A DNA stretch of 40,161 nt from Candidatus Parcubacteria bacterium (GCA_017991975.1 JAGOPM010000002.1:1-40161); one strand, 5' to 3'; shown: positions 8,124-40,084, counted from the first letter of the stretch. The notes: generated by a model not told the origin, from the sequence alone. Program-made: numbers and translations.

Positions 8124-10961
8124 ATGGAAGCAAAAAAACAAAGAACTTCCTTTGGCGAGCTTTTAAAAGCAATTTTTATTATTGCTTTTTTTATTGTTTT
8201 GCCGTTACAAACGCATGCATACTGCCACAAAGGAGCAACAATTTATCAAAGTTATAATGAAGCTGTAAAGCAAAGCGTATGGACTATGGGCATAGGCTCA
8301 AGCGACCCTAACTCGATTCAAGGATATAGATCGCTTCAAGATGCCATGGGATATATAGATGACATAGGAATACTTGGATATAAATACAATCAATGTTCTT
8401 CTTACACATCTCCATCATACCCTTCATATCCAAGCCAGCCATCATACCAAACGCCCAGCGTAAACACTATTTCAGCTAATCCGACTTATTCTGATGTGAC
8501 ACTGCAAGGATATGTCTCAAGCCTTGGAGGAGCATCAAGCGCCCAAGTATCTTTTGAAATTTGGCAAAAACAAACTGGTTCTTCTGCTGCTTCTCTTATC
8601 ACTGCCAACAAAACTGTTTATTCTCCTGGATATTTCACTATAACCACTAATTACCCTCAGACCGATGCTACGCTTTTCGGATATAGAGCAAGAATTCAAA
8701 CTAACGCTGGAACAGGATATGGATATGAACAAACTTTTACCAGACCAATTTATGTTCAACCAACCCCTCCGGTGTATCCGACATATCCTCAAAATCCAAC
8801 TATTACTTACCCTCAAGTAATAACCAGTAATGCATCTTATAACAGTTATTCCAATATCGCTGATTTTTCTGGATATCTTTCAAACCTTGGCAATGATAAC
8901 TCAGCCAAAACTGGATTCTGCTTATACGAAAAAAATTATGGATTCTATTGTCAGCAAGAATTAATTTCTGAATATAATAAATATTATGCAGGAAGTTTTA
9001 CTTATTCTAATTTTTCAACAGCATCTCTGAAATCAGGAACTCAATATTGCGTCAGAGCTTTCGCGCAAAATTCATATGCCAAGCAATTCGCTTCGGAATA
9101 TCAGGATAAATGTTTTACGACAAAATCATCTTATACTCCTCCAACCACAGTTTATACTTACCCAGAAACAAGAACAGAAAATATTTATTACAACAGTACT
9201 AATGATGAAATTTCTCTCTATGGATATCTGGCAAGCGCTGGAAATTATGGATACGCTAAAACCGGATTTTGCATTTATGAAAAAAATTATGGATTTTCAT
9301 GCGTCAGCGAATTAACGGCAAATGCCTTTCAATCTTCTTTAGGAAATTTTTCATATCTAAACTATTCTACACAAAATTTGAAAAGAAATACGCAATATTG
9401 CGTAAGAGCATATGGAGAAAATGAATATGGAAAAAAATATTCCTTAGCATATTATGATAAATGTTTTACAACTAGATATGATTATTATCAGCCTCCATAC
9501 AACCCAGGAACTCCATCAACATACCTCCCTCAAGTGAGAACAATGAATGCAATTTATTATCCTAATACTCTTATTGCTAATTTTTCGGGATATGTAGATT
9601 ATATAGGATCATACATGACAGCTAAGGTAGGATTCTGCCTTTATAGATATGAAAGCGGATTTTCCTGTGAACAAGAATTGATTTCTGAATATTCAAGAAG
9701 ATATAATGGATATTTTTATTACAATAATTTCCCAAGAAATGGATTATTATCTGATACTAAATATTGTGTAAGGGCATATGGAGAAAACTCGGCTGGAAGA
9801 TATTATGCTTCGGAATATCAGGATAAATGTTTTACAACAGACCAAGGATCAATACCAAGCCAGAATGAAGCAATCGAAATATCAAAAACAGCCACAGCTG
9901 GGACAGAATGCCAAACAGCAGATATTCAAATAAGAATAAATTGCAAAAGCTCTTATTGCCAAAATGTAGTCGTCTATGATGCATTAGCAGCAAATACAAA
10001 TTATATCAGCAATTCAGCAAGCCCTATTGTTTCCTATTATTGGCCTCATAAAGGACAAGCTTCCAGATTATTAGTCTGGAGTATCGGAAACATGAATAAT
10101 GGGACAAGAACAATTCAATATAAAATAAAATTTGCAGATGGATCGACCAACCAGCTAACAAATGATTATCCGGAATCAAAAGTAACTTATAATTTCTCAG
10201 GAGCACAAGCTACAAAAATTTTTGAAAAAGTTTTTGTAAATCCGATATCTTGCTCTGCTTCTAATCCGGATCCTGAGCAACAAGATCCTGGTCAGAATCC
10301 AGATCCACAACCTCAAAAAAAGAGCTGCCAAGATTATAAAAATATCTTCAAGGATAAATTCCAATATTGCGGAGAAAAAGGATATTATAGCGTTTGCGTC
10401 AATTCTGATCGAGATTTTTATACAGGCTGCAGCTTTTCAGAATTACAATGCACAAGACTAAATTCTAAAAATATAAGCTGCCAAATTCCTGATGATTACA
10501 GACAATATAAAATACAAACCATAGGATTATATTACCAAACACTGTCATCATTCTTAGCAAGAGGATATCTTTTCTCTGGATATGGAAAAGCAGATGTTGG
10601 TTTCATAACCTATGAACAAGGTAAACAAGATCAAGCAAAAGAAATCCAAGCAAACCAAGCGCAAGCAAACGGATATTTTCAAAAAACAATAGCTGCTAAC
10701 GACTTAGGAGATCCGGGAAAAACATATTGCATAAAAGCTTTCTATATGAAAGGAAGCCAAAAAGTTTTAGCCCAAGAAGAAAAATGCTATACACTGGGAG
10801 GCTGTTATAAAGGAATCATAATATATTCAAGGCAAGGCGTTTCAAGCATGCCCTTCTGGGCGAGACTCCCCGAATATTACCAAAAACAAAATTATTCTGA
10901 ATTACAAAGTTTAATAGATGAAAAAATAAATTCCGGAAAAACTTTCAGTCAATGCCAATAA
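8124..10961 (+). CDS. large secreted/anchored repeat protein (Cys-containing Fn3-like modules, DUF11-like domain, P/Q linker, Cys-rich domain)
   Basis: 945 aa with an N-terminal hydrophobic anchor. Three tandem modules of about 102 aa end in YCVRA(Y/F)..N......KCFTT (nt 8817-9122, 9168-9473, 9534-9839). More diverged copies lie near the N- and C-termini. A PDPEQQDPGQNPDPQPQ linker is present. Confidence 0.7.
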   Translation: MEAKKQRTSFGELLKAIFIIAFFIVLPLQTHAYCHKGATIYQSYNEAVKQSVWTMGIGSSDPNSIQGYRSLQDAMGYIDDIGILGYKYNQCSSYTSPSYPSYPSQPSYQTPSVNTISANPTYSDVTLQGYVSSLGGASSAQVSFEIWQKQTGSSAASLITANKTVYSPGYFTITTNYPQTDATLFGYRARIQTNAGTGYGYEQTFTRPIYVQPTPPVYPTYPQNPTITYPQVITSNASYNSYSNIADFSGYLSNLGNDNSAKTGFCLYEKNYGFYCQQELISEYNKYYAGSFTYSNFSTASLKSGTQYCVRAFAQNSYAKQFASEYQDKCFTTKSSYTPPTTVYTYPETRTENIYYNSTNDEISLYGYLASAGNYGYAKTGFCIYEKNYGFSCVSELTANAFQSSLGNFSYLNYSTQNLKRNTQYCVRAYGENEYGKKYSLAYYDKCFTTRYDYYQPPYNPGTPSTYLPQVRTMNAIYYPNTLIANFSGYVDYIGSYMTAKVGFCLYRYESGFSCEQELISEYSRRYNGYFYYNNFPRNGLLSDTKYCVRAYGENSAGRYYASEYQDKCFTTDQGSIPSQNEAIEISKTATAGTECQTADIQIRINCKSSYCQNVVVYDALAANTNYISNSASPIVSYYWPHKGQASRLLVWSIGNMNNGTRTIQYKIKFADGSTNQLTNDYPESKVTYNFSGAQATKIFEKVFVNPISCSASNPDPEQQDPGQNPDPQPQKKSCQDYKNIFKDKFQYCGEKGYYSVCVNSDRDFYTGCSFSELQCTRLNSKNISCQIPDDYRQYKIQTIGLYYQTLSSFLARGYLFSGYGKADVGFITYEQGKQDQAKEIQANQAQANGYFQKTIAANDLGDPGKTYCIKAFYMKGSQKVLAQEEKCYTLGGCYKGIIIYSRQGVSSMPFWARLPEYYQKQNYSELQSLIDEKINSGKTFSQCQ
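8817..9839 (+). repeat. three tandem intragenic repeats of about 306 nt encoding the Cys-containing modules
   Basis: Protein-level repeats GFC.Y...GF.C..EL....Y....F.Y.N......L...T.YCVRA.......Y...Y.DKCFTT. A 29-nt identical stretch gcttcggaatatcaggataaatgttttac occurs at 9090-9118 and 9807-9835. Confidence 0.85.
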
Positions 10962-19534: not shown

Positions 19535-19912
19535 TCATTTCACTAATTGAGAAAGTTTTATTGATTTTAATTCCTTATATACAGCTTTCTGAATTCTTAA
19601 ACCAATATCATAAGTCTGACACTGACATCTCATAGCACAATTCTTAGAAATGCATTTCATAATATCTCCCTCTAAAGGAGCTATTATGTCTGATAAGGTA
19701 ATATTAGGCTTTGCTAAACAATAACCTCCATTAGGACCCTTTTTTGCCCTTAAAAGCCCTTTCTTTTCAAGTATTCCTATTATTTTCTCCAAATATGCGA
19801 AAGGTATTTTCTCGTTTTTAGAAATCTCTTTTAAGGCTGTAGGCTTATTGCCTTTTTTTGCCAGAAATATCATAGCCCTAATTCCGTATGTTGTTTTAGT
19901 TGAAAGTTTCAT
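19535..19912 (-). CDS. Rrf2-family transcriptional regulator (IscR/CymR-like)
   Basis: 125 aa. MKLSTKTTYGIRAMIFLA is the Rrf2 wHTH N-terminus. A C-terminal Cys cluster CISKNCAMRCQC is compatible with Fe-S ligation. Confidence 0.85.
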   Translation of the reverse strand: MKLSTKTTYGIRAMIFLAKKGNKPTALKEISKNEKIPFAYLEKIIGILEKKGLLRAKKGPNGGYCLAKPNITLSDIIAPLEGDIMKCISKNCAMRCQCQTYDIGLRIQKAVYKELKSIKLSQLVK

Positions 19913-19935
19913 TCTGTATATTCATCTTCTTTAAT

Positions 19936-19964
19936 ATAATATCAGACTATTTTAGTCTGATATT
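19936..19964. promoter_or_regulatory. perfect 13-3-13 palindrome, candidate Rrf2 operator
   Basis: taatatcagacta-ttt-tagtctgatatta. It starts at the edge of the -10 element of the Rrf2 gene promoter and covers the expected transcription start. Confidence 0.5.
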
Positions 19965-19992
19965 ATCATAGCCGATTCTTTATTTTTGTCAA
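19964..19992 (-). promoter_or_regulatory. promoter of the Rrf2-nifS-nifU-mnmA string (TTGACA-17-TATGAT)
   Basis: On the minus strand, TTGACA at 19992-19987, a 17-nt spacer, and TATGAT at 19969-19964. Confidence 0.55.
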
Positions 19993-19994
19993 AC

Positions 19995-20044
19995 AAAAAA
20001 AGCAGGAGAGAATTCTCTCCTGCTTTAGGATTTAGTGTTTATTA
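19995..20044 (-). terminator. intrinsic terminator block T-A, copy 1 of a 50-nt exact repeat (copy 2 at 24971-25020)
   Basis: Stem GCAGGAGAG-aatt-CTCTCCTGC (20002-20023), followed by T7 on the minus strand. The 50 nt are identical to 24971-25020 in my hand alignment. Confidence 0.8.
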
Positions 20045-20069
20045 ATATCTATAATAAACCCTATTGCTA

Positions 20070-20282
20070 TTACTTTTTGTCGTCTGCAGTAACGGTAAGT
20101 TCTCTGGGTAACATCTTTATTCTATCAAAAACAAAAGGTTCTTCAATTTCCCGGGGCAACATATGGGGCAACATATCTATCATCTCTATCATCCTCCTTA
20201 ATTTATTGGGTAACATCTTTATTCTATCAAAAACAAAAGGTTCTTCAATTTCCCGGGGCAACATATCTATCATCTCTATCAT
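20070..20282 (-). CDS. putative 70-aa micro-ORF built from a tandem duplication (coding status uncertain)
   Basis: AAGGAGG (20289-20283) followed by ATG at 20282 and ATG at 20273. Peptide MIEMIDMLPREIEEPFVFDRIKMLPNKLRRMIEMIDMLPHMLPREIEEPFVFDRIKMLPRELTVTADDKK. The track ORF start at 20354 lies in the conserved leader and is unlikely. Confidence 0.3.
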   Translation of the reverse strand: MIEMIDMLPREIEEPFVFDRIKMLPNKLRRMIEMIDMLPHMLPREIEEPFVFDRIKMLPRELTVTADDKK

Positions 20283-20296
20283 CCTCCTTAATTTAT
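20106..20296. repeat. tandem direct repeat, 101-nt unit + 89-nt unit, with an internal 12-nt micro-duplication
   Basis: gggtaacatctttattctatcaaaaacaaaaggttcttcaatttcccggggcaacatat...ctatcatctctatcatcctccttaatttat occurs at 20106-20206 and 20208-20296. The first unit carries an extra ggggcaacatat (20153-20164 repeated at 20165-20176). Each unit contains an AAGGAGG-ATG on the minus strand. Confidence 0.95.
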
Positions 20297-20374
20297 AACG
20301 TACTGCTATCTGTTTTGCCTTGTCCCAGCCGCTGATTGTGGGGTATTTGAACAAGTTTTGACAGATATTGTTAT
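20283..20374 (-). promoter_or_regulatory. conserved 5' leader of about 92 nt (leader A, copy 1), candidate cis-regulatory RNA
   Basis: Part of the 131-nt block 20279-20409, which matches 25908-26038 with 7 substitutions and no indels. Helices UAUCUGU/ACAGAUA (20367-20361 with 20313-20307) and CUUGU/ACAAG can be drawn. Confidence 0.45.
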
Positions 20375-20380
20375 ATATTA

Positions 20381-20409
20381 ATTATATCATACTATCTCTA
20401 TTTTGTCAA
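20381..20409 (-). promoter_or_regulatory. consensus promoter Pr-A (TTGACA-17-TGaTATAAT)
   Basis: On the minus strand, TTGACA at 20409-20404, a 17-nt spacer ending in TGA, and TATAAT at 20386-20381. Confidence 0.7.
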
Positions 20410-20436
20410 TACTACCCTTTTTCAAAATATATATAA

Positions 20437-20468
20437 TAAAAGCCCCTTTCTTTTGAAAGGGGCTTTTT
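20437..20468 (-). terminator. intrinsic terminator T-B (near-identical to T-C at 21888-21918)
   Basis: AGCCCCTTTC-tttt-GAAAGGGGCT, followed on the minus strand by TTTTATT. Confidence 0.8.
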
Positions 20469-20473
20469 GATGT

Positions 20474-20992
20474 TTATTTCCAAGAACTCTCTTTTAAGGA
20501 CGAATAGTTAGAAGATACTCCCAACTCGGTATGAAAAGTGTTAACAGAATCCATCCTTGCTGTATTGAATTGGACTTCACCATAATCAATAAAGACAATT
20601 TTGTCTTGCTTGGAGAATATCCTTGCCAACACTTCCAGTTCCTTTGTTTCTGAGATTATCTCCTCAGAGATAAAAGGAGTATGAAGCGTTGCAAAAAAAT
20701 TCTTCTTCTGACTGTTCTTCTTGGGAATAGTATAAATTATTTCCTGCCATTCCCGACCAGCTGTTTTAGATAGAATAGTTACTTGTTTAGATGAATAATA
20801 TGGTTCCAAAACAATTTTATATTCTATCTTTGCATCATTTTCTATCTTTTGAGTGAAAGGATTATAGTAAGATACCTTCAAAGCCATTACTATCAGCTCC
20901 ATTATACGCCAGCTCTCAGAGATTTCTGAAGGCAGTTCATTTAATGGAACTAATTCTTTATAATCTCCTTGGGCGTAAATGGAAACTGGCAT
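20474..20992 (-). CDS. hypothetical protein (ORFan, second gene of a 2-gene unit)
   Basis: 172 aa. RBS AAAGGAGAAAAAATG. 33 nt downstream of the 21026 stop. No family recognised. Confidence 0.55.
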   Translation of the reverse strand: MPVSIYAQGDYKELVPLNELPSEISESWRIMELIVMALKVSYYNPFTQKIENDAKIEYKIVLEPYYSSKQVTILSKTAGREWQEIIYTIPKKNSQKKNFFATLHTPFISEEIISETKELEVLARIFSKQDKIVFIDYGEVQFNTARMDSVNTFHTELGVSSNYSSLKESSWK

Positions 20993-21025
20993 TTTTTCTC
21001 CTTTCAGATCAGATTTCTCAGTTGA

Positions 21026-21682
21026 TCAATTTATGCCTTCTTCAAAAAGCCATTTTTTTCTCAATTCCTTGGCTCTTTTCAAGAAATTATTTATGTCTTG
21101 AACAGTGGGAATTGTTTCTGGAATTTCTTCTCTGTCTTTATTTCTAAGGCCGACCATTGCCACCGCCACTCCAGATTTCGTATCATTGAAGACTCTTACA
21201 ACAGAAACGATGAACGTGCCATTTTTGGTAACGTATACCGATTCGTTTGTTCCAGAGGAAATTTGACCATGATCATTTTCTCCAACTATGAAATTTTCCC
21301 CTACTTCTTCTTCTGTTTCTTCTTCACATTTCTTTATCATTTCTTCTGTTTTTTCTGTGGCTGTTACGAAGAAGAATTTCCCGAATTTTGGATCTTTTTT
21401 CAAAGATTGGAATTCTTCATCAGGGACTAATTCCACGGTAAGGTTTATCTCATCGTCTGGTCCGTTTATTTCATTTTTTGTAGTCACTGCATGAAAAATT
21501 TTGCCGTTCTTATCAACATATTCAAAATTTTCATATGCAAAACTCGCTTCTCCAAAAATCAATGCTCCGCGATAACCAGAATGGATTGGATTCCCGTTTT
21601 CATCTTTTCTCACTGAAATTCCTTTTTCTAAAAGTTCTTTTTCATCAAATTTTTCATTGATAATGAGCGCGGCCTTTGCCAT
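21026..21682 (-). CDS. hypothetical acidic protein (ORFan)
   Basis: 218 aa. RBS GAAAAGGAGAAAAAATG. Has its own promoter and a structured leader. No family recognised. Confidence 0.55.
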   Translation of the reverse strand: MAKAALIINEKFDEKELLEKGISVRKDENGNPIHSGYRGALIFGEASFAYENFEYVDKNGKIFHAVTTKNEINGPDDEINLTVELVPDEEFQSLKKDPKFGKFFFVTATEKTEEMIKKCEEETEEEVGENFIVGENDHGQISSGTNESVYVTKNGTFIVSVVRVFNDTKSGVAVAMVGLRNKDREEIPETIPTVQDINNFLKRAKELRKKWLFEEGIN

Positions 21683-21788
21683 TTTTTCTCCTTTTCTTCC
21701 ATGGTTCCTTTATTTTTAATAAAGGTAGGAAGCAATGCTAACTTTTTTCCCGCCAGGTTAGCCTGGACATAGGCATAGCATTATTTTA

Positions 21789-21817
21789 TATATATCATAC
21801 TATTTAATATTTGTCAA
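21789..21817 (-). promoter_or_regulatory. promoter Pr-B (TTGACA-17-TGaTATATA)
   Basis: On the minus strand, TTGACA at 21817-21812, a 17-nt spacer ending in TGA, and TATATA at 21794-21789. It shares ATAGTATGATATA with Pr-A and Pr-D. Confidence 0.65.
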
Positions 21818-21887
21818 TAGCACCTAATCTAAAATCAAAAAGGGATATATTAGTATCAAAATCATGATTTTTATTAAAAATAAACAA

Positions 21888-21918
21888 TAAAAGCCCCTTT
21901 CCTTTGAAAGGGGCTTTT
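21888..21918 (-). terminator. intrinsic terminator T-C
   Basis: AAGCCCCTTTC-cttt-GAAAGGGGCTT. Near-identical to T-B, including the upstream ataaaa context. Confidence 0.8.
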
Positions 21919-21931
21919 GCCAATGCCCTAA

Positions 21932-22546
21932 TTATGGGCAAATATAATATTGGAAGCTGATTACAAGATCTTCCATCCTCTTTTTTTCCCTAATCTTTTT
22001 CACTATCTCTGCTTTCTTTTCCTTTTCCATATCCAGATAATTGGAGTTTCCTGTCTTGATACGCATTTCCTGATAGTGTCTGCTTTCTTCTTCTAATTTC
22101 TCGATGTCTGAATTCAAGTGGCTGATTCTTTTGTTTAAAAAAGAAAAATGATCATCAGCAGTATCAAACATCATCTCGGCAATATTATCTATTATTCTAG
22201 AGCAATCATCTCTACTGCCATGGAACGATATCGGCTCATATCCGCATGCTTCCGATGAATTATCAAATTCAATGGTTGCTGAATCAAAGGATATTTTTGA
22301 GATGATTAGAACAATCTTCCCCTTCTTTCCTACGATAGGGATATTGTCTCCTTCCTTGCCTAAAAGCCATTGAATCTCTCTTTTAAAATCCGCCCCGGTG
22401 ATAACAGCTCTATTTTTCGAACTCCGAGCTTTAACTTCTATGACACTGCGATTCATTTCTTTTTCCAAAGGATTCCTATCAACGATTTCAAGGGAAAAAA
22501 CATTGTTCCCGATACGGACTTTCTTTTCTGTATTCTTTTCTGACAT
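21932..22546 (-). CDS. hypothetical protein with C-terminal coiled-coil-like region (ORFan)
   Basis: The track start is TTG at 22552. ATG at 22546 sits 8 nt after AAGGAAG. The region LNSDIEKLEEESRHYQEMRIK...EKEKKAEIVKKIREKKRMEDL is heptad-like. Confidence 0.55.
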   Translation of the reverse strand: MSEKNTEKKVRIGNNVFSLEIVDRNPLEKEMNRSVIEVKARSSKNRAVITGADFKREIQWLLGKEGDNIPIVGKKGKIVLIISKISFDSATIEFDNSSEACGYEPISFHGSRDDCSRIIDNIAEMMFDTADDHFSFLNKRISHLNSDIEKLEEESRHYQEMRIKTGNSNYLDMEKEKKAEIVKKIREKKRMEDLVISFQYYICP

Positions 22547-22629
22547 TATCAACTTCCTTTCTTTTCCCTGTTTTCATTTTTGGGTTTTTAGTTTCAAACC
22601 TAAAACAGGATCTTTTATGTGCTATATTA

Positions 22630-22658
22630 ATTATAGCATACTTATCTAAAAATGTCAA
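22630..22658 (-). promoter_or_regulatory. consensus promoter Pr-C (TTGACA-17-TGcTATAAT)
   Basis: On the minus strand, TTGACA at 22658-22653, a 17-nt spacer ending in TGC, and TATAAT at 22635-22630. AGTATGnTATAATTAATATA is shared with Pr-A and Pr-D. Confidence 0.7.
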
Positions 22659-22664
22659 TAGCTA

Positions 22665-22693
22665 TTGCCTACCAATAACTTTTAGCCTATATT
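22665..22693 (+). promoter_or_regulatory. candidate divergent promoter (TTGCCT-17-TATATT)
   Basis: ttgcct at 22665-22670, a 17-nt spacer, tatatt at 22688-22693. The RBS TAAGGAGG precedes the 22726 ATG. Confidence 0.45.
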
Positions 22694-22725
22694 AAAGCAA
22701 ACAAAAAACCTATAAGGAGGTTTAA

Positions 22726-23835
22726 ATGGAGATCATTAAAAAAAAGAGCAATAGACTGGAAACTATTTTAAAGCATACAAAATCTGGAGACCAAATTATC
22801 ATTGCTAATTTCAAGGAATATCGAGATGAAAATAGGCAAAAAATACAATGGTGGAAATTGGTGAAAAATGGAGCTTTTATTGTTGATGATCAAGGAGAGC
22901 TTTTTTACAACGATAATAAAATAGACTTCCCTAAAATCACTTATGAAGATAATATTTATGCTTTTGATAAATATTTTGTCTGTATCAGTAATCAAGACGG
23001 GATATCATTTATCAATATTCCCCAATCATCTAATAGCATTCAAAAACATATATCAATAACAAAAGATTATGATGATAATCCTATAATCGCAAAAACAGGA
23101 ATATATTTTAAAAAAGACGCTGATCTATATTTCTATTCTTTCAAGAAAAAAAGAAAAGAAATTATTTGGCAAGGGAAAACAAGAATTTGCAATATGTCTG
23201 TCTGCGATCAAGGAATAATTATTCCAGAAAAAGATGATATTATTCTAATCGAGAATTCTCGCAAAATTCTCATCCTATGGAATAAGCCTCATTCTTGCAT
23301 AGAAGAAAAATATTATACGACCAACATAACACCCAGTTACAATGATGAAAAATTATTTTTATTTGATAAAGATGGAAAAGGCATAATTCATAGCCAAAAT
23401 AGGATTGTTCAAGAAACTTCTTTTACGACAAAAAGTAATTTCTCTTTTTCTATGACACCAATAGGATTGCTTTACAATAATACAGATGATATTGAATCAA
23501 ATATCGAAATATTAACCTTAACTGGCAAAAAAATAAATCTTGGTTCTTACGAAAACCCTCATACAACAATATCAGAAAAAGGAGTCATTATATCAACTTT
23601 AAATAACTCTGGAAAAAAGCTCGGATCCCTGCATATTAATAGTCATAGAGCAGATGAATTTTTTATTCCTTTCAAAAAAATCAGAGAAGATAATTTTACT
23701 TTTTACAGAGATCGCATCAAAATTTACCTTCGTGCCGAAAACGCTTGGTTTAAATATGATCAAGATTATGATAATGAAATTGGTTATGCTCGACTAAACG
23801 AAGAAAAAAACGAAATAAGATTCTTCGTAAAATAA
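22726..23835 (+). CDS. hypothetical cytoplasmic protein (ORFan, beta-rich)
   Basis: 369 aa with a strong RBS and its own terminator. No family recognised. Confidence 0.55.
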   Translation: MEIIKKKSNRLETILKHTKSGDQIIIANFKEYRDENRQKIQWWKLVKNGAFIVDDQGELFYNDNKIDFPKITYEDNIYAFDKYFVCISNQDGISFINIPQSSNSIQKHISITKDYDDNPIIAKTGIYFKKDADLYFYSFKKKRKEIIWQGKTRICNMSVCDQGIIIPEKDDIILIENSRKILILWNKPHSCIEEKYYTTNITPSYNDEKLFLFDKDGKGIIHSQNRIVQETSFTTKSNFSFSMTPIGLLYNNTDDIESNIEILTLTGKKINLGSYENPHTTISEKGVIISTLNNSGKKLGSLHINSHRADEFFIPFKKIREDNFTFYRDRIKIYLRAENAWFKYDQDYDNEIGYARLNEEKNEIRFFVK

Positions 23836-23842
23836 TGCAATA

Positions 23843-23876
23843 AAAAAACCGCTTGAATTATAAAGCGGTTTTTTTG
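23843..23876 (+). terminator. intrinsic terminator
   Basis: ACCGCTT-gaattata-AAGCGGT followed by TTTTTTT. Confidence 0.7.
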
Positions 23877-23934
23877 TATGTAATTAATCCAGTTTACATA
23901 TTAAATTAAAATGTTATGATTTTGATATAACATT

Positions 23935-24972
23935 ATGAAAAACTGGCAAAAAATACGCAACAATCCAGCCTTAAAAGAACGCGAGATTAAACGCTCGCTA
24001 ATATTCCGCTATATTCGGGAATTTTTTGATAAGCAAGGTTTTTATGAGATCCAATGCCCTTTGCTTTTAGCCTGCCCGGGCATGGAACCCTATTTGGAAC
24101 AAATCGGCTTAGATCTTTATGATGAAAAGCGCAACAAATACCGTGGCTATCTTTCCACTTCTCCGGAATACTCAATGAAAAAAATGCTCTCTGCCGGCTT
24201 TGAAAAAATTTATAATATGGCCTCGGCCTTTCGAGGTGGAGAAAGTTTTGGCGGCACACATAATATTGAATTTACAATTTTGGAATGGTATCGCGCCAAT
24301 ACTGACTATACTGCCATTATGGAAGATGTGGAAGATTTGGCAATTTATTTGGCCCAGAAATTGCATGGAAAAACTTTAATAAAATATCAGGGGCAAGAAA
24401 TTGAATTAGCCAAACCTTGGCAAAGAATGACAGTCAGAGAAGCCTGCCAGAAATACGCCAATTTTGATTTAAGCGAAAATAAAGAATTAGAACAAATTAA
24501 AAAAACCGCGCTAGACAAGGGTTACAAAGTGGCAGACAATGCCACCTGGGACGATTTATTTTATCTGATATTCCTCAATGAGGTGGAACCAAATTTCCCC
24601 AAAGATAAACCTTTAATTTTGTGCGAATACCCCCTACCCCAAGCTGCTTTGTCAAAACCTTGCCAGCATGATCCTTGGTATGCTGAAAGATTTGAATATT
24701 ATATCGGAGGAATTGAAATTGGAAATTGCTTTTCGGAATTAGTTGACGGAGATGAACAATTAAAAAGATTGCAAGAAGAGCAAAAACTCCGCGGAATTTT
24801 GGGTAAAGAAATCTTGCCCATTGATATGGAATTTATTAAAGCTCTTAAAATGGGCGTGCCTGACTCTTCGGGCATTGCTGTGGGCGTGGACCGTTTGCAA
24901 ATGCTTTTGCTTGATGTCAAAGACATCAACGACTTATTGCCATTTCCAGACAAAGATTTGTTTAATTTATAA
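23935..24972 (+). CDS. epmA: EF-P lysine lysyltransferase (PoxA/GenX, class II LysRS paralog lacking the anticodon-binding domain)
   Basis: 345 aa. Class II aaRS motifs: FYEIQCPLL, the YLSTSPEYSMKKML-type motif 1/2 region, EWYRAN, and the GVPDSSGIAVGVDRLQMLL motif 3. Length and domain content fit EpmA rather than LysS. Confidence 0.8.
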   Translation: MKNWQKIRNNPALKEREIKRSLIFRYIREFFDKQGFYEIQCPLLLACPGMEPYLEQIGLDLYDEKRNKYRGYLSTSPEYSMKKMLSAGFEKIYNMASAFRGGESFGGTHNIEFTILEWYRANTDYTAIMEDVEDLAIYLAQKLHGKTLIKYQGQEIELAKPWQRMTVREACQKYANFDLSENKELEQIKKTALDKGYKVADNATWDDLFYLIFLNEVEPNFPKDKPLILCEYPLPQAALSKPCQHDPWYAERFEYYIGGIEIGNCFSELVDGDEQLKRLQEEQKLRGILGKEILPIDMEFIKALKMGVPDSSGIAVGVDRLQMLLLDVKDINDLLPFPDKDLFNL

Positions 24973-25020
24973 AAAAAGCAGGAGAGAATTCTCTCCTGCT
25001 TTAGGATTTAGTGTTTATTA
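24971..25020. terminator. intrinsic terminator block T-A', copy 2 of the 50-nt exact repeat; shared by convergent epmA and the GC-rich gene
   Basis: Identical to 19995-20044. Its last 3 nt (tta, 25018-25020) are the TAA stop of the GC-rich gene. Confidence 0.8.
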
Positions 25021-25911
25021 CAAAAGATCTGAAGAAAGGAAGGCCGAAGCGGAGCCGTAGTGCTCGTAGACGCTGCCGAACCAGTAGGCGTCGAAACAGA
25101 CCCTGTCGACGGCGAAGCAGCCGAAGAGCGGCGCGCTCGAGAAGCTGCCAAAGCCGCCCGGAGCGAACTCGTCACCCGCGCAGTCGACGTGCAACTGTTC
25201 CCACCGAACTTCGCGTTCCGGGTGGGTCAGCAGCATGATGCCGACAGCGAAGGCACCGAGACCGAACTCGTTGGCCTGGAAGACCTCGCGTGCCCGGCGA
25301 ACCGAGCGACCGCGATACCTGAGACCGAACTGGGCCGGAACGACGAGGATGTCGTGATCCTTCTGCTCGTCGCCGAGCTTCTGGAACATCTTCGCCGTCT
25401 TCGCGTGCTGGCGCAGGTACTCCGCTCCGAGCCGGCCGTCACGGTAGTCGTAGAACTCCCGCTTCGACGCGATCATCGCGAGCACCTTCTGGAGCGCCTC
25501 GCCGTAGGTCGGGGCGATCTTCTCCCACCTCGGAATGGCGAACCATCCTTCGGCGCCGTCGGGCAACTGCGGCAGGTTCTTGGCGTACTCGAGCGCGCTC
25601 GCCGGGTCGAGATCGAAGATCTTGGTGATTACCTTGATCTGATCCGCGATCGGCTTGGGGCCCTTGTACTCCTTCGGATACGCGTAGCTCGACTCGACTT
25701 CCTCGTGGGCGAACTGGTTGTACAGCGAGAGCTCCTTGATGCCGATGATGATGCGAGCTTGAAACTTGTCACCGTTCTCGATGAGCTTCTGGATGCCGTC
25801 CTTGTCGAGGAGACCCTCGGCGATTGCGCGATCCACGGCGTCTTCCGCGAACCGCTTGACCTGCTTCTTCTGTCCGTCTGTGACGGTGGTGATCAATGTT
25901 TCCATTGTCAT
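25018..25911 (-). CDS. GC-rich hypothetical protein (297 aa; 295 aa if the second ATG at 25905 is used), compositionally foreign
   Basis: AAGGAGG at 25918-25912, then ATGACAATG. Strong G/C third-position bias along the minus frame. Consensus promoter and terminator. The opposite-strand ORF 25060..25920 lacks any start context. No family recognised by me. Confidence 0.7.
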   Translation of the reverse strand: MTMETLITTVTDGQKKQVKRFAEDAVDRAIAEGLLDKDGIQKLIENGDKFQARIIIGIKELSLYNQFAHEEVESSYAYPKEYKGPKPIADQIKVITKIFDLDPASALEYAKNLPQLPDGAEGWFAIPRWEKIAPTYGEALQKVLAMIASKREFYDYRDGRLGAEYLRQHAKTAKMFQKLGDEQKDHDILVVPAQFGLRYRGRSVRRAREVFQANEFGLGAFAVGIMLLTHPEREVRWEQLHVDCAGDEFAPGGFGSFSSAPLFGCFAVDRVCFDAYWFGSVYEHYGSASAFLSSDLL

Positions 25912-26003
25912 CCTCCTTGATTTATAACGTGCTGCTATCTATTTTGTCTTGTCCCAGCCGCTGATTGCGGGGTATTTGAACAAGTTTTGACAGATATTGT
26001 TAT
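25912..26003 (-). promoter_or_regulatory. conserved 5' leader (leader A, copy 2)
   Basis: Part of the 131-nt block 25908-26038, matching 20279-20409 with 7 substitutions. Confidence 0.45.
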
Positions 26004-26009
26004 ATATTA

Positions 26010-26038
26010 ATTATATCATACTATCCTTATTTTGTCAA
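26010..26038 (-). promoter_or_regulatory. consensus promoter Pr-D (TTGACA-17-TGaTATAAT), paralog of Pr-A
   Basis: On the minus strand, TTGACA at 26038-26033, a 17-nt spacer ending in TGA, and TATAAT at 26015-26010. Confidence 0.7.
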
Positions 26039-26095
26039 GCAAACAGTCCCCTTGATTTTATAACATTTTTTTGATTAAATAATATTAAAATTAAT

Positions 26096-26653
26096 ATGAT
26101 AACAACAGCAGATTTCACCAAAGGAACAATTATAAAAATCGAAGGCAATTATTGGGAAATAACTGAATGCCAATTTGTTAATCCTGGAAAAGGATCGGCA
26201 TTTACAAGGACAAGGTTAAAAAACCTTAAAGACGGCCGCACAATGGAACAAACTTATAAATCAGGAGAAGAATTCCAAGATGTAGAGTATGACAAAAGAG
26301 ATGCCGTATTTTTATACAAAGACAGGAAAAATGCCGTTTTTTCAGTAGGAGAAAAAAAAGAAAGAATCAGTCTGCCTTTAGAAACTCTATCGGACAAAAT
26401 GCCCTACCTAAAAGAAAACACTGAATTAGAAATGATGTTTGCCGAAGGTCAATGTTTAACAATAATGCTTCCTAAAAAAGTCAATCTCAAAGTTGTTATG
26501 GCTCCGCCATCAATGAAAGGAAATACTGCCGGATCAGCTACGAAAACAGTAACAGTAGAAACTGGTTTAGAAATAGTAGTTCCAGATTTTATAAATGAAG
26601 GGGACATAATCAGAATAAACACTGAATTAGGTAAATATAGCGAAAGAGTTTAA
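26096..26653 (+). CDS. efp: translation elongation factor P
   Basis: 185 aa. The FVNPGKGSAFTRTRLKNLKDGRT loop carries the modifiable Lys in PGKG. Three-domain length. Confidence 0.92.
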   Translation: MITTADFTKGTIIKIEGNYWEITECQFVNPGKGSAFTRTRLKNLKDGRTMEQTYKSGEEFQDVEYDKRDAVFLYKDRKNAVFSVGEKKERISLPLETLSDKMPYLKENTELEMMFAEGQCLTIMLPKKVNLKVVMAPPSMKGNTAGSATKTVTVETGLEIVVPDFINEGDIIRINTELGKYSERV

Positions 26654-32269: not shown

Positions 32270-32300
32270 CCTCGCTCGTAAGCCGAGCTACGGCTGAGAG
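32270..32300. repeat. GC-rich palindromic hairpin element, degenerate copy (in the T-arm of the tRNA-like copy)
   Basis: cctcgctcgtaagccgagctacggctgagag. Same termini and core (cctcgc.cgt ... gctacggc.gag.g) as the two copies at 32348-32414. Confidence 0.75.
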
Positions 32301-32347
32301 ATTCGAACCTAGATAATCGCCTCCAGAGGGCGATGTCCTACCATTAG

Positions 32348-32414
32348 CCTCGCCCGTGGCCGGGCTACGGCCGAGGGCCTCGCCCGTAGGAAGTAGCCTA
32401 GCTACGGCCGAGGG
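32348..32414. repeat. two tandem GC-rich palindromic hairpin elements (30 nt + 37 nt) in the D-arm of the tRNA-like copy
   Basis: cctcgcccgtggccgggctacggccgaggg (32348-32377) and cctcgcccgtaggaagtagcctagctacggccgaggg (32378-32414). Each folds as CCTCG(C)CCGT...ACGGCGAGG-type stems of 9-12 bp with one mismatch or bulge. Confidence 0.85.
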
Positions 32415-32433
32415 ACGATCCTTCTGCGCAAAG

Positions 32434-32504
32434 TTGCGGGACTAGGATTCGAACCTAGATAATCGCCTCCAGAGGGCGATGTCCTACCATTAGACGATCC
32501 CGCA
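32434..32504 (-). tRNA. tRNA-Gln (anticodon CUG), no encoded CCA
   Basis: Hand fold. Acceptor TGCGGGA/TCCCGCA with U1-A72 (a bacterial tRNA-Gln hallmark). Anticodon stem ATCGCC/GGCGAT with loop CTCTGGA. T arm CTAGG-TTCGAAT-CCTAG. Discriminator A. Confidence 0.85.
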
Positions 32505-39730: not shown

Positions 39731-39744
39731 ATCTATTTAAAAAG

Positions 39745-40084
39745 CCTAAGTAAGCAATAAGCCGAATTCTGTCTTGGGTAATCATTTATCTGCCCTACCA
39801 ATTGCTTGGCAAGATCAAGCGAGCTACTTTTCTCTATAAGCCTTTCGGCAAATAGATTTGCTCTTGCATTCAAGTAAGGATTTAGCCGTTTCACCTTCAA
39901 GGTTTCCCTTAAAGCTGACCCAAATGGATCCTCTTCTGTTTTCACAGAAAAGCGTCTCTGCTCGCACCTCTATCCTTGCGGACGGCGGCCGTTAACCGCT
40001 ACTCTTTTTCCCGTAAACGGGAGAATGTTCGGACTTTCCTCCCTTCTGCCTTGCGGCGAAGAGCGATTACCTTGCTTACTTAGG
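39745..40084 (-). ncRNA. rnpB: RNase P RNA, bacterial type A
   Basis: On the minus strand, P1 is CCTAAGTAAGCAA (40084-40072) pairing with TTGCTTACTTAGG (39757-39745). CR-I is GGGAGGAAAGTCCGAAC. Also AGATAAATGATTACC and ACAGAATTCGGCTTAT (P4 3' strand). Locally GC-enriched. Confidence 0.9.

What the first reader, a model, noticed from the sequence alone, without database searches (positions are those of the whole stretch)
25018..25911. GC-rich 297-codon gene in a ~30% G+C genome, with the compositional step at its own start and stop codons
Hand counts of G+C:
- 25081-25140 has 40/60.
- 25621-25680 has 32/60.
- 26041-26100, just outside the gene, has 10/60.

The minus-strand frame carries G or C at most third positions (for example GTC GAC TGC GCG GGT GAC GAG TTC GCT CCG GGC GGC). 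That is the codon usage of a high-GC organism, whereas every other gene here is A/T3-rich.

Both strands are open, as expected for GC-rich DNA. Only the minus frame has AAGGAGG (25912-25918), a consensus TTGACA-17-TGaTATAAT promoter and a strong terminator.

The switch from host-like to foreign composition happens within about 20 nt of the ORF ends. The regulatory DNA around it is host-type and paralogous to another locus 5 kb away.

The gene sits antisense between epmA and efp, which would otherwise be about 60 nt apart on the same strand. I cannot place the protein (MTMETLITTVTDGQKKQVKRF...HVDCAGDEFAPGG...YGSASAFLSSDLL) in any family.

Working hypothesis: a recent acquisition from a high-GC donor, for example an actinobacterial host of an epibiotic CPR cell, captured precisely into a resident expression cassette.
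Basis: partly seen in the sequence, partly recalled or inferred. Interest (0 to 1): 0.85.

Follow-up and report, generated by a model that had tools for sequence, protein, structure and literature searches.

The report
Solo GC-rich DGR variable-protein gene
The GC-rich gene is not loot from a high-GC host: it is the hypervariable "target" protein gene of a diversity-generating retroelement family confined to tiny CPR bacteria, sitting here without its retroelement, and this whole gene family stays oddly GC-rich in AT-rich genomes for reasons nobody has explained.

Summary
ORF 25018-25911(-) has GC 0.61 and GC3 0.84, against 0.33 and 0.28 for the 41 other ORFs (z about 13).

The protein belongs to a large Pfam-less family, about 2,700 clusters at 90% identity, and nearly all named sources are Patescibacteria/CPR. 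Its last ~40 residues are hypervariable at discrete positions.

In about half of 80 species-level loci, a 129-137-nt template repeat, an Avd gene and a reverse transcriptase lie beside the gene. The repeat differs from the gene's 3' end almost only at adenines. The gene is therefore a diversity-generating retroelement (DGR) variable protein.

The window copy is solo: there is no TR, RT or Avd in 40 kb. Conspecific alleles at this same epmA-efp site nonetheless differ mainly at template-adenine positions. A genus-level relative carries other AT-rich genes at this site, so the insertion is lineage-specific.

The GC excess is family-wide, about +16 points over flanks. It is specific to the target gene, because neighbouring RT and Avd genes track host GC. 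It persists although synonymous sites are saturated. It is therefore a maintained trait and not a mark of recent high-GC origin. Its cause is unexplained.

The parts
25018..25911 (-). Coding sequence of the GC-rich variable protein, a DGR target homologue. The likely true start is ATG 25905 (295 aa). The upstream in-frame ATG at 25911 abuts the SD.
25034..25162 (-). Variable region (VR). This stretch is homologous to the template repeats of related DGRs. It encodes APGGFGSFSSAPLFGCFAVDRVCFDAYWFGSVYEHYGSASAF.
   Evidence: Against the nearest TR (L001), 19-21 of about 27-32 mismatches fall at TR adenines. Among conspecific alleles, 26 of 30 TR-adenine columns vary against 10 of 101 other columns.
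25038..25056 (-). GC-rich conserved 3' end of the VR (GGCTCCGCTTCGGCCTTCC). It is shared by the VRs and TRs of the family and occupies the IMH position. Sequence distal to it is replaced by a species-specific AT-rich tail.
25558..25662 (-). Mosaic segment (aa ~84-118). It exists in two alternative versions that are about 50% divergent in nt, among conspecific alleles and across the family.
25912..25918 (-). Shine-Dalgarno sequence AAGGAGG. The 11-nt AAGGAGGATGA is common to the family consensus and to the paralogous cassette, and marks the 5' junction.
25912..26003 (-). AT-rich 5' UTR of about 92 nt. It is 95% identical to the UTR of the cassette at 20279-20409. It matches no Rfam family and folds modestly (z -2.1).
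26010..26038 (-). Consensus sigma-70-type promoter, TTGACA-17-TATAAT with TG.
24975..25002 (.). Bidirectional intrinsic terminator hairpin shared with epmA. It lies within the 50-nt block 24971-25020, which is repeated at 19995-20044.
19995..20409 (-). Paralogous expression cassette. It has the same promoter/UTR/SD and the same stop/terminator. Its body is a 70-aa AT-rich ORF with an internal 90/102-nt tandem duplication.
25060..25920 (+). Antisense 286-aa ORF. It is a by-product of high GC3 and not a gene.
   Evidence: broken by 1-12 stops in many homologues, with openness tracking GC3

Best explanation
The ORF encodes a variable (target) protein of a diversity-generating retroelement (DGR) family that is essentially confined to Patescibacteria/CPR.

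Mechanism in complete elements of the family. A 129-137-nt template repeat (TR) is transcribed. The DGR reverse transcriptase, with Avd, copies it into cDNA while misincorporating at template adenines. In the nearest TR there are 30 adenines in 19 codons, 9 of them AAC, giving about 10^17.6 possible protein variants. The cDNA then overwrites the homologous variable region at the 3' end of this gene. That rewrites a C-terminal, presumably ligand-binding, surface while the N-terminal ~250 residues stay nearly invariant.

The window copy is a solo target.
- It lies antisense between epmA and efp, in a variable interval of the chromosome.
- It is driven by a consensus promoter and ends at a bidirectional terminator.
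- There is no TR, RT or Avd within the 40 kb.

Shown here:
- family membership;
- the VR signature;
- adenine-site differences among conspecific alleles at this same locus;
- lineage-specific presence of the gene at this site;
- a family-wide, target-specific GC excess.

Inferred:
- The VR here was, and may still be, rewritten by a DGR acting in trans from elsewhere in the genome or from a co-resident element.
- The gene reached this site by recombination, with junctions at the SD/start and inside the IMH region.
- High GC3 is held by selection or a biased process acting on the target gene itself.
For: Family and VR signature.
- across 39 homologues residues 1-250 are nearly invariant. The last ~40 are hypervariable at discrete positions, bracketed by invariant CAGDEF and YGSASAF.
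- in L001 the TR and VR are 131 nt long, and all 17 mismatches fall at TR adenines. RVT_1 and bAvd genes are adjacent.
- 204 species-level genomes encode a relative. In about 42 of the 80 loci examined, TR + Avd + RT lie within about 0.4-1.3 kb, with mismatches almost only at adenines.

Evidence at this locus.
- the window VR differs from the nearest TR mainly at adenines. The conspecific L111-type allele at the same epmA-efp locus differs from that TR at 15 of 15 core positions, all adenines. Among 7 distinct conspecific alleles, 26 of 30 adenine columns vary against 10 of 101 others.
- independent contigs that are 96-99.7% identical span the locus.
- the syntenic relative lacks the gene at this site.

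GC excess.
- the gene exceeds its flanks by +0.16 on average in 78 loci. RT and Avd differ from flanks by -0.025. GC3 is 0.72 for the target against 0.43 for RT.
- target pS is about 0.63, which is saturation for this composition. pN is about equal to that of RT.

Literature.
- Roux 2021 (PMC8144416) describes a CPR-restricted cellular DGR clade whose targets lack recognisable domains.
Against: - No TR, RT or Avd lies in the 40-kb window.
- An exact-match scan for the TR core in the metagenome collection found 18 DGRs, none from this species.
- The window allele carries about 8 non-adenine differences and a 3-nt insertion relative to the nearest TR.
- One VR haplotype is identical in 6 contigs from different samples, and one strain has a premature stop. 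Diversification is therefore not rampant and may have ceased.
- The IMH-distal sequence is replaced by a species-specific tail.
- The fold of the VR domain could not be established. AlphaFold pLDDT is about 30 over residues 235-297, and there is no Foldseek, PDB or Pfam match.
Confidence: 0.8

Rival explanations
1. Orphaned relic. The gene is a former DGR target whose retroelement has been lost from this lineage. The different VR haplotypes seen in conspecific strains were imported by homologous recombination with alleles from DGR-bearing relatives, not made in situ. The protein now functions, or decays, as a fixed-sequence gene.
For: - No DGR parts lie in 40 kb.
- Only 3-4 VR haplotypes occur among 13 conspecific contigs, and one of them is identical across 6 contigs.
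- The gene is clearly mosaic, with a ~105-nt segment in two versions that are about 50% divergent.
- The window allele has non-adenine changes and an indel relative to the nearest TR.
- One strain has a nonsense mutation.
- RT and target pairwise identities are only weakly correlated across the family (r 0.40). This shows that targets are reshuffled.
Against: - All conspecific alleles keep the species-specific 3' tail and UTR, while their VRs differ almost only at TR-adenine positions (15/15 for L111-type). Retrohoming bounded by the IMH predicts exactly this pattern.
- About half of the family's loci lack an adjacent DGR yet keep intact ORFs. Remote targets are known for DGRs (Wu 2018, PMC5758913).
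Confidence: 0.3
2. The gene is a recent horizontal acquisition from a high-GC organism, for example an actinobacterial host of the epibiont, and its GC content is that of the donor.
For: - GC3 is 0.84 against 0.28 for the other ORFs.
- The gene is absent from this site in a genus-level relative.
- One homologue is labelled Limisphaerales, and a few sit in bins labelled Gammaproteobacteria.
Against: - About 2,700 clusters at 90% identity, or 2,053 at 50%, belong to the family. Nearly all named sources are Patescibacteria.
- Flanks of homologues have GC 0.29-0.59, and the gene is always the richer.
- The adjacent RT and Avd genes are host-like in GC.
- Synonymous sites are saturated between most members, yet GC3 stays high.
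- No high-GC reservoir was seen in viral contigs.
Confidence: 0.03
3. Assembly chimera. A GC-rich fragment from another organism was joined into an AT-rich contig.
For: The compositional step is sharp. Many conspecific contigs break in or beside the gene (L115-L118).
Against: At least 10 contigs from different samples and assemblers contain epmA, the gene and efp at 96-99.7% identity. They include JGI 3300025720, 3300009673 and 3300009780, and ENA ERZ778037, ERZ27257440, ERZ27257459 and ERZ795031. The AT-rich UTR and tail are contiguous with the GC-rich body in all of them.
Confidence: 0.01
4. The real gene is the 286-aa ORF on the + strand (25060..25920), or the locus is dual-coding. That would constrain synonymous sites and hold GC high.
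For: - The + strand ORF spans nearly the whole region.
- Gene callers picked + strand ORFs in some conspecific contigs (L110, L113, L114, L116).
- Nucleotide identity exceeds amino-acid identity between close homologues.
Against: - It is the codon-aligned antisense frame, and its openness tracks GC3.
- It is interrupted by 1-12 stops at varying places in many family members.
- It has no SD or promoter.
- The excess of nt over aa identity is explained by non-synonymous hypermutation in the VR.
Confidence: 0.02

Closest known systems
Variable (target) proteins of the CPR-restricted cellular DGR clade ('clade 2' of Roux et al. 2021, PMC8144416; 'CPR set' with unclassified VRs UVR1-6 of Wu et al. 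2018, PMC5758913)
   Same: - The host range is Patescibacteria.
- The protein is ~290 aa with no recognisable domain, signal peptide or TM segment.
- The VR is C-terminal.
- Homologues sit next to TR + Avd + RT with adenine-specific TR/VR mismatches.
- Some of the MAGs carrying homologues (GW2011 and RIFCSP series) belong to the data sets those surveys used.
   Different: - The window copy has no DGR within 40 kb and lies between housekeeping genes.
- Its IMH-distal sequence and C-terminal tail are species-specific.
- I could not verify which, if any, of the published VR classes it corresponds to, because the supplements are not held.
- I found no description of the family-wide, target-specific GC excess in the papers I could search.
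Bordetella phage BPP-1 DGR (mtd-avd-TR-brt), the prototype
   Same: The logic is the same: a TR copy with adenine mutagenesis replaces a 3'-terminal VR, AAC codons dominate the TR, and a GC-rich segment ends the VR and TR. The RT is homologous, with 32% identity to the L001 RT.
   Different: - The target protein is not homologous to Mtd, and no PDB match was found.
- In this family avd lies on the opposite strand, between TR and RT.
- The elements are cellular, not phage-borne. Only 5 of 2.9 million viral contigs carry the family.
- The TR contains AAG codons, which can mutate to stop codons.
Remote or non-adjacent DGR targets (for example multi-target DGRs catalogued by Wu et al. 2018)
   Same: The target gene is separated from the RT/TR and would be diversified in trans through sequence homology of VR and TR.
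   Different: In this window the separation exceeds 15-25 kb and the cognate DGR has not been located at all, so trans-diversification remains an inference.
Genomic islands acquired by HGT and recognised by atypical GC
   Same: The composition is atypical with sharp boundaries, and the gene is absent from the orthologous site of a relative.
   Different: - The atypical composition is not that of a donor genome.
- It is conserved across the gene family in hosts of GC 0.29-0.59.
- It is not shared by the co-located RT and Avd genes.

Membership tests
DGR variable (target) protein | A C-terminal region that is hypervariable at discrete codons within an otherwise conserved protein | tested here: met
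   Alignments A1 and A5-A7: residues 1-250 are nearly invariant, and residues ~250-285 vary with the D/G/Y/F/N/H/S/C/R/V/A spectrum.
DGR variable (target) protein | A cognate template repeat whose mismatches to the VR fall at TR adenines | tested here: inconclusive
   No TR lies in the 40-kb window. The feature is met in homologues: 17/17 mismatches in L001, and about 42 of 80 loci. Against the heterologous L001 TR, the window VR has 19-21 adenine mismatches against about 8 non-adenine ones plus an indel. The conspecific L111-type allele has 15/15 at adenines.
DGR variable (target) protein | A DGR-type reverse transcriptase (with Avd) in the same genome, usually nearby | tested here: not met
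   tblastn with the L001 RT and Avd found nothing in the window. The rest of the genome could not be searched. RT and Avd are present beside about half of the homologues.
DGR variable (target) protein | An IMH: a GC-rich segment at the 3' end of the VR, shared with the TR and followed by target-specific sequence | tested here: met
   GGCTCCGCTTCGGCCTTCC (25038-25056) is conserved in family VRs and TRs. The sequence after it differs between VR and TR, and here it is a species-specific tail. Function was not tested.
DGR variable (target) protein | The VR displayed on a C-type lectin (or Ig) fold | tested here: inconclusive
   Two AlphaFold runs gave pLDDT of about 30 for residues 235-297. Foldseek against the PDB gave no match with E<0.9. 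Profile searches against PDB and Pfam were empty.
Recent import from a high-GC donor | The closest homologues reside in high-GC genomes, and the composition matches the donor | tested here: not met
   Homologues lie in Patescibacteria contigs with flanks of GC 0.29-0.59, and the gene is always more GC-rich than its flanks.
Recent import from a high-GC donor | The atypical composition is shared by co-transferred neighbours and decays with residence time | tested here: not met
   Adjacent RT and Avd genes are host-like (-0.025 relative to flanks). The target stays at +0.16 despite synonymous saturation.
Known anti-phage defence, phage or annotated protein families | A profile match in PADLOC, PHROGs, NCBIfam or Pfam | tested here: not met
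   There were zero hits at E<=1. Of 59 diverse family representatives, none has a credible Pfam hit.

The most novel reading that the evidence does not exclude
The target genes of this CPR DGR family are held at high GC3 along their whole length, with 4-fold sites at A 0.10, T 0.20, G 0.28 and C 0.41. A force acting on the target gene alone does this, independently of host composition (0.29-0.59) and of the adjacent RT and Avd genes.

Candidate forces are:
- selection against adenines or AT-rich sequence in a gene exposed to an adenine-mutagenic retroelement;
- a requirement for stable heteroduplex or DNA structure during cDNA integration;
- GC-biased gene conversion in a gene that recombines unusually often;
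- deliberate use of codons that are rare in the host.

If the link to DGR biology is real, it would be an undescribed compositional signature of this target family. Three phage DGR targets checked here lack it. It would also give a handle for finding orphan targets by composition alone.
Probability: 0.35. Interest if true: 0.7.

Novelty: new member of a known kind. Interest (0 to 1): 0.5.

Why it matters
The result turns an apparent cross-phylum gene theft into something better grounded. It is a hypervariable surface or ligand-binding protein gene of an ultra-small, probably episymbiotic bacterium. The gene is parked between translation-factor genes without its mutagenic machinery.

Three points follow.

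1. Atypical GC can mislead as a marker of recent HGT. In this case it is a stable property of a gene family.

2. The contrast between GC-rich targets and host-like RT and Avd genes, across about 80 species, is a clean and quantifiable anomaly. I found no description of it in the papers I could search. It may reveal a constraint of DGR retrohoming or of recombination in CPR genomes.

3. About half of the family's genes are solo. Trans-acting or lost DGRs may therefore be common in CPR. That bears on how these organisms vary the proteins presumed to mediate host attachment.

Tried and rejected
Protein annotation.
- Pfam, NCBIfam, PHROGs and PADLOC scans of the protein gave nothing.
- A Pfam scan of 59 diverse representatives gave nothing credible.
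- PDB sequence and profile searches gave only a non-significant match (E~1-2) to an oxygen-binding diiron protein over the QFGLRHRGRSVRRA motif. I dismissed it.

Structure.
- AlphaFold was run twice, with alignments of 39 and 90 sequences. Mean pLDDT was 60 and 63, and the VR domain was unmodelled.
- Foldseek against the PDB returned no meaningful hit.

RNA.
- Rfam on the window and on the 5' UTR found no family.
- The UTR fold is only modestly stable.

Search for DGR parts.
- Searches for TR, RT and Avd in the window found none.
- An exact TR-core scan of metagenome contigs found 18 DGRs, none conspecific.
- The same scan of viral contigs found 0.

Hypotheses rejected.
- The antisense-ORF or dual-coding hypothesis.
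- Sense-strand adenine depletion alone as the cause of the high GC. T is also depleted, and GC3 is high in every decile of the gene.
- The DGR cassette as a GC-rich mobile unit. RT and Avd are host-like in GC.
- A generic property of DGR targets. Three phage DGRs show no such excess.

Literature.
- Searches for a described GC bias of DGR targets found only the statement that ~20% of DGRs deviate by >=5% GC from the host, read there as HGT (Wu 2018).
- Paul et al. 2017 was not held.
- The Wu 2018 supplements were not held.

Full report
**1. The observation**

The 41 other ORFs of at least 100 aa average 0.331 and 0.277, which gives z of about 13 for both.

The step at the 5' end coincides with the SD/start. 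At the 3' end it falls about 22 nt before the stop, so the last codons (SSDLL) are already AT-rich.

The regulatory signals are all present:
- a 12/12 promoter with TG at 26038-26010;
- the SD at 25912-25918;
- a 12-bp-stem bidirectional terminator at 25002-24975.

The likelier start is the second ATG at 25905. It has 6-nt SD spacing and is the start used by most homologues.

The flanks are duplicated 5.6 kb away. Segment 24971-25020 equals 19995-20044 (100%). Segment 25908-26038 matches 20279-20409 (95%). The other copy encloses a 70-aa AT-rich ORF with an internal tandem duplication. The neighbours are an EpmA-like synthetase paralogue and EF-P.

**2. What the protein is**

No profile library recognises it. 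It nevertheless has thousands of homologues of about 289 aa at 46-94% identity. These amount to 2,651-2,714 clusters at 90% identity and 2,053 at 50%. All are annotated as hypothetical, and nearly every named source is a Patescibacteria/CPR MAG.

The alignment is diagnostic. Residues 1-250 are almost invariant. The last ~40 residues vary at discrete positions between the invariant motifs CAGDEF and YGSASAF.

In locus L001 the homologue lies beside RVT_1 and bAvd genes. A 131-nt inverted repeat links its 3' end to a template repeat, and all 17 mismatches fall at template adenines.

A scan of one genome per GTDB species found 204 species with a relative. In about 42 of the 80 loci examined, a 129-137-nt TR, Avd and RT lie within about 0.4-1.3 kb, with mismatches almost only at adenines. 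The nearest TR has 30 adenines in 19 codons, 9 of them AAC, which allows about 10^17.6 protein variants.

This is therefore a DGR variable protein. It matches the CPR-restricted cellular DGR clade, whose targets lack recognisable domains (Roux 2021, PMC8144416), and the unclassified CPR VRs of Wu 2018 (PMC5758913).

**3. The window copy**

There is no TR, RT or Avd anywhere in the 40 kb. The closest relatives (L002-L012, L014, L016) are likewise solo.

The VR (25034-25162) still carries the signature. Against the L001 TR, 19-21 mismatches fall at adenines and about 8 elsewhere, plus a 3-nt insertion.

Thirteen further contigs from other samples come from the same species, with flanks 96-99.7% identical. 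Ten of them span both junctions of the same epmA-target-efp locus, which excludes a chimera.

They hold seven distinct full-length alleles, all sharing the species-specific UTR and tail. The L111-type VR differs from the L001 TR at 15 of 15 core positions, all adenines. Across the alleles, 26 of 30 adenine columns vary against 10 of 101 others. DGR mutagenesis has therefore shaped this very locus within the species.

Whether it still acts, in trans, is unresolved:
- One haplotype recurs unchanged in six contigs.
- One strain has a premature stop.
- A scan for the exact TR core found 18 DGRs, none from this species.
- A ~105-nt internal segment exists in two versions that are about 50% divergent among conspecific alleles. 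This shows recombination with other family members.

**4. How it got here**

A syntenic relative, L127, shares 70-79% nt identity and has GC 0.317. It keeps nifU-iscS-Rrf2 ... epmA and efp-HD-SNase-... in the same order. Between epmA and efp it has two AT-rich genes of 166 and 402 aa, and no target. The interval is thus a variable hotspot and the target is a lineage-specific insertion. It is not an insertion into a 60-nt gap.

The junctions can be read from alignments:
- Identity to the family begins at AAGGAGGATGA, a motif also shared with the paralogous cassette.
- Identity ends inside the GC-rich IMH-like segment.
- The promoter, UTR, stop and terminator are resident-type modules.

L127 also reuses one terminator sequence twice in this interval, so reuse of regulatory modules appears to be a habit of the lineage. 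The direction of copying between the two cassettes in the window cannot be determined.

**5. The GC anomaly**

It is not peculiar to this copy. In all 80-odd loci the gene (GC 0.45-0.65) is richer than its flanks (0.29-0.59). Over 78 loci the mean excess is +0.16, and it is the same with or without an adjacent DGR.

The RT and Avd genes next door track the host:
- RT and Avd differ from flanks by -0.025.
- The slope of RT GC on flank GC is 0.80, against 0.40 for the target.
- GC3 is 0.43 for RT against 0.72 for the target.

GC3 is high in every decile of the gene. At 4-fold sites the target has A 0.10, T 0.20, G 0.28 and C 0.41. RT has 0.22, 0.31, 0.24 and 0.23 in the same order.

Between family members pN equals that of RT (about 0.27). 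Target pS (about 0.63) is what saturation predicts for this composition. The bias has therefore been maintained over long divergence.

Several alternatives fail:
- Exchange among CPR hosts of mean GC 0.42 cannot produce a gene GC of 0.59.
- No high-GC reservoir appears. The viral collection holds 5 loci of the family and 0 TR hits.
- Three phage DGRs show no target-specific excess, so this is not a generic DGR property.
- The full-length antisense ORF is a by-product. It is broken in many members, and its openness tracks GC3.

The cause remains unexplained. The candidates are listed under the novel case.

**6. Function**

The protein has no signal peptide or TM segment. The confidently modelled part is an N-terminal three-helix bundle followed by an alpha/beta region. 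The VR domain is not modelled, and no structural or profile relative was found. By analogy with other DGR targets, the VR probably forms a ligand-binding surface. This is inference only.

**7. Verdict**

Its core claim of a recent import from a high-GC donor is rejected.

The gene is a new member of a known kind, a CPR DGR target. The interesting residue is the maintained, target-specific GC3 excess of the whole family.

Noticed in passing
L001:7038-7163, L003:7051-7175, and more than 10 further loci (L015, L017, L018, L019, L021, L031, L037, L095, L098, L103-L105); absent from the window: The Rfam LOOT RNA motif (RF03000) scores 76 bits against a gathering threshold of 46. It lies about 170-200 nt downstream of the target gene, on the same strand, in the DGR loci that have the RT-upstream architecture and in one solo locus. 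This structured RNA may be part of this DGR family. The main text of the paper that described the motif says nothing about it.
   Followed up: partly
L090 (ENA ERZ761562 NODE_14666, 5672 nt) versus window 20279-26038: The contig is a circular permutation of the window segment bounded by the two 131-nt promoter/UTR repeats, with a 55-nt end overlap. It is either a real excised circle or tandem duplication formed by recombination between the repeats, or an assembly-graph cycle.
   Followed up: partly
Loci with DGRs, for example L001:3946-5528 and L045:9279-10848: In this DGR family avd is encoded on the strand opposite to TR and RT and lies between them (TR, antisense avd, RT). This holds in both cassette architectures. 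The TR also contains AAG codons, which can mutate to stop codons.
   Followed up: no
window 19995-20409 (-): A paralogous expression cassette carries a 70-aa AT-rich ORF (MIEMIDMLPREIEEPFVFDRIKMLP...). Its body contains a perfect 60-nt and a perfect 42-nt direct repeat that duplicate its own SD and start. It has no Pfam hit.
   Followed up: partly
window 19535-26100 versus L127:2589-10000: The whole stretch between Rrf2 and efp differs in gene content between the window species and a syntenic relative. It consists of hypothetical genes without Pfam hits and looks like a variable island. Identical promoter or terminator modules recur within it in both genomes.
   Followed up: partly
window 32282-32504: A tRNA-Gln(CTG) gene is preceded by two partial tRNA-like direct repeats (57 nt at 93% identity, and 41-nt copies). 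These may be remnants of integration or duplication at a tRNA gene.
   Followed up: no
window 8124-10961 (+): A 945-aa ORF has three internal repeats of about 350 nt (67-76% identity) and no Pfam hit. It is probably a repeat-containing surface protein.
   Followed up: no
L110:2935-3816, L115-L118: One conspecific strain carries the target with a premature stop at codon 206. Several conspecific contigs end inside or beside the gene. In some contigs gene callers annotated the antisense strand. All three are practical consequences of a hypervariable, GC-rich, mosaic gene.
   Followed up: partly
L001:5780-6000 and L003:5780-6000: Homologues in other genomes share a different, longer 5' UTR of about 150 nt. 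It is conserved, GC-balanced and has obvious pairing potential, and it sits downstream of a TTGACA promoter. It matches no Rfam family at E<=0.1.
   Followed up: no
window 39743-40082 (-): A bacterial RNase P class A RNA (132 bits) lies at the end of the window.
   Followed up: no
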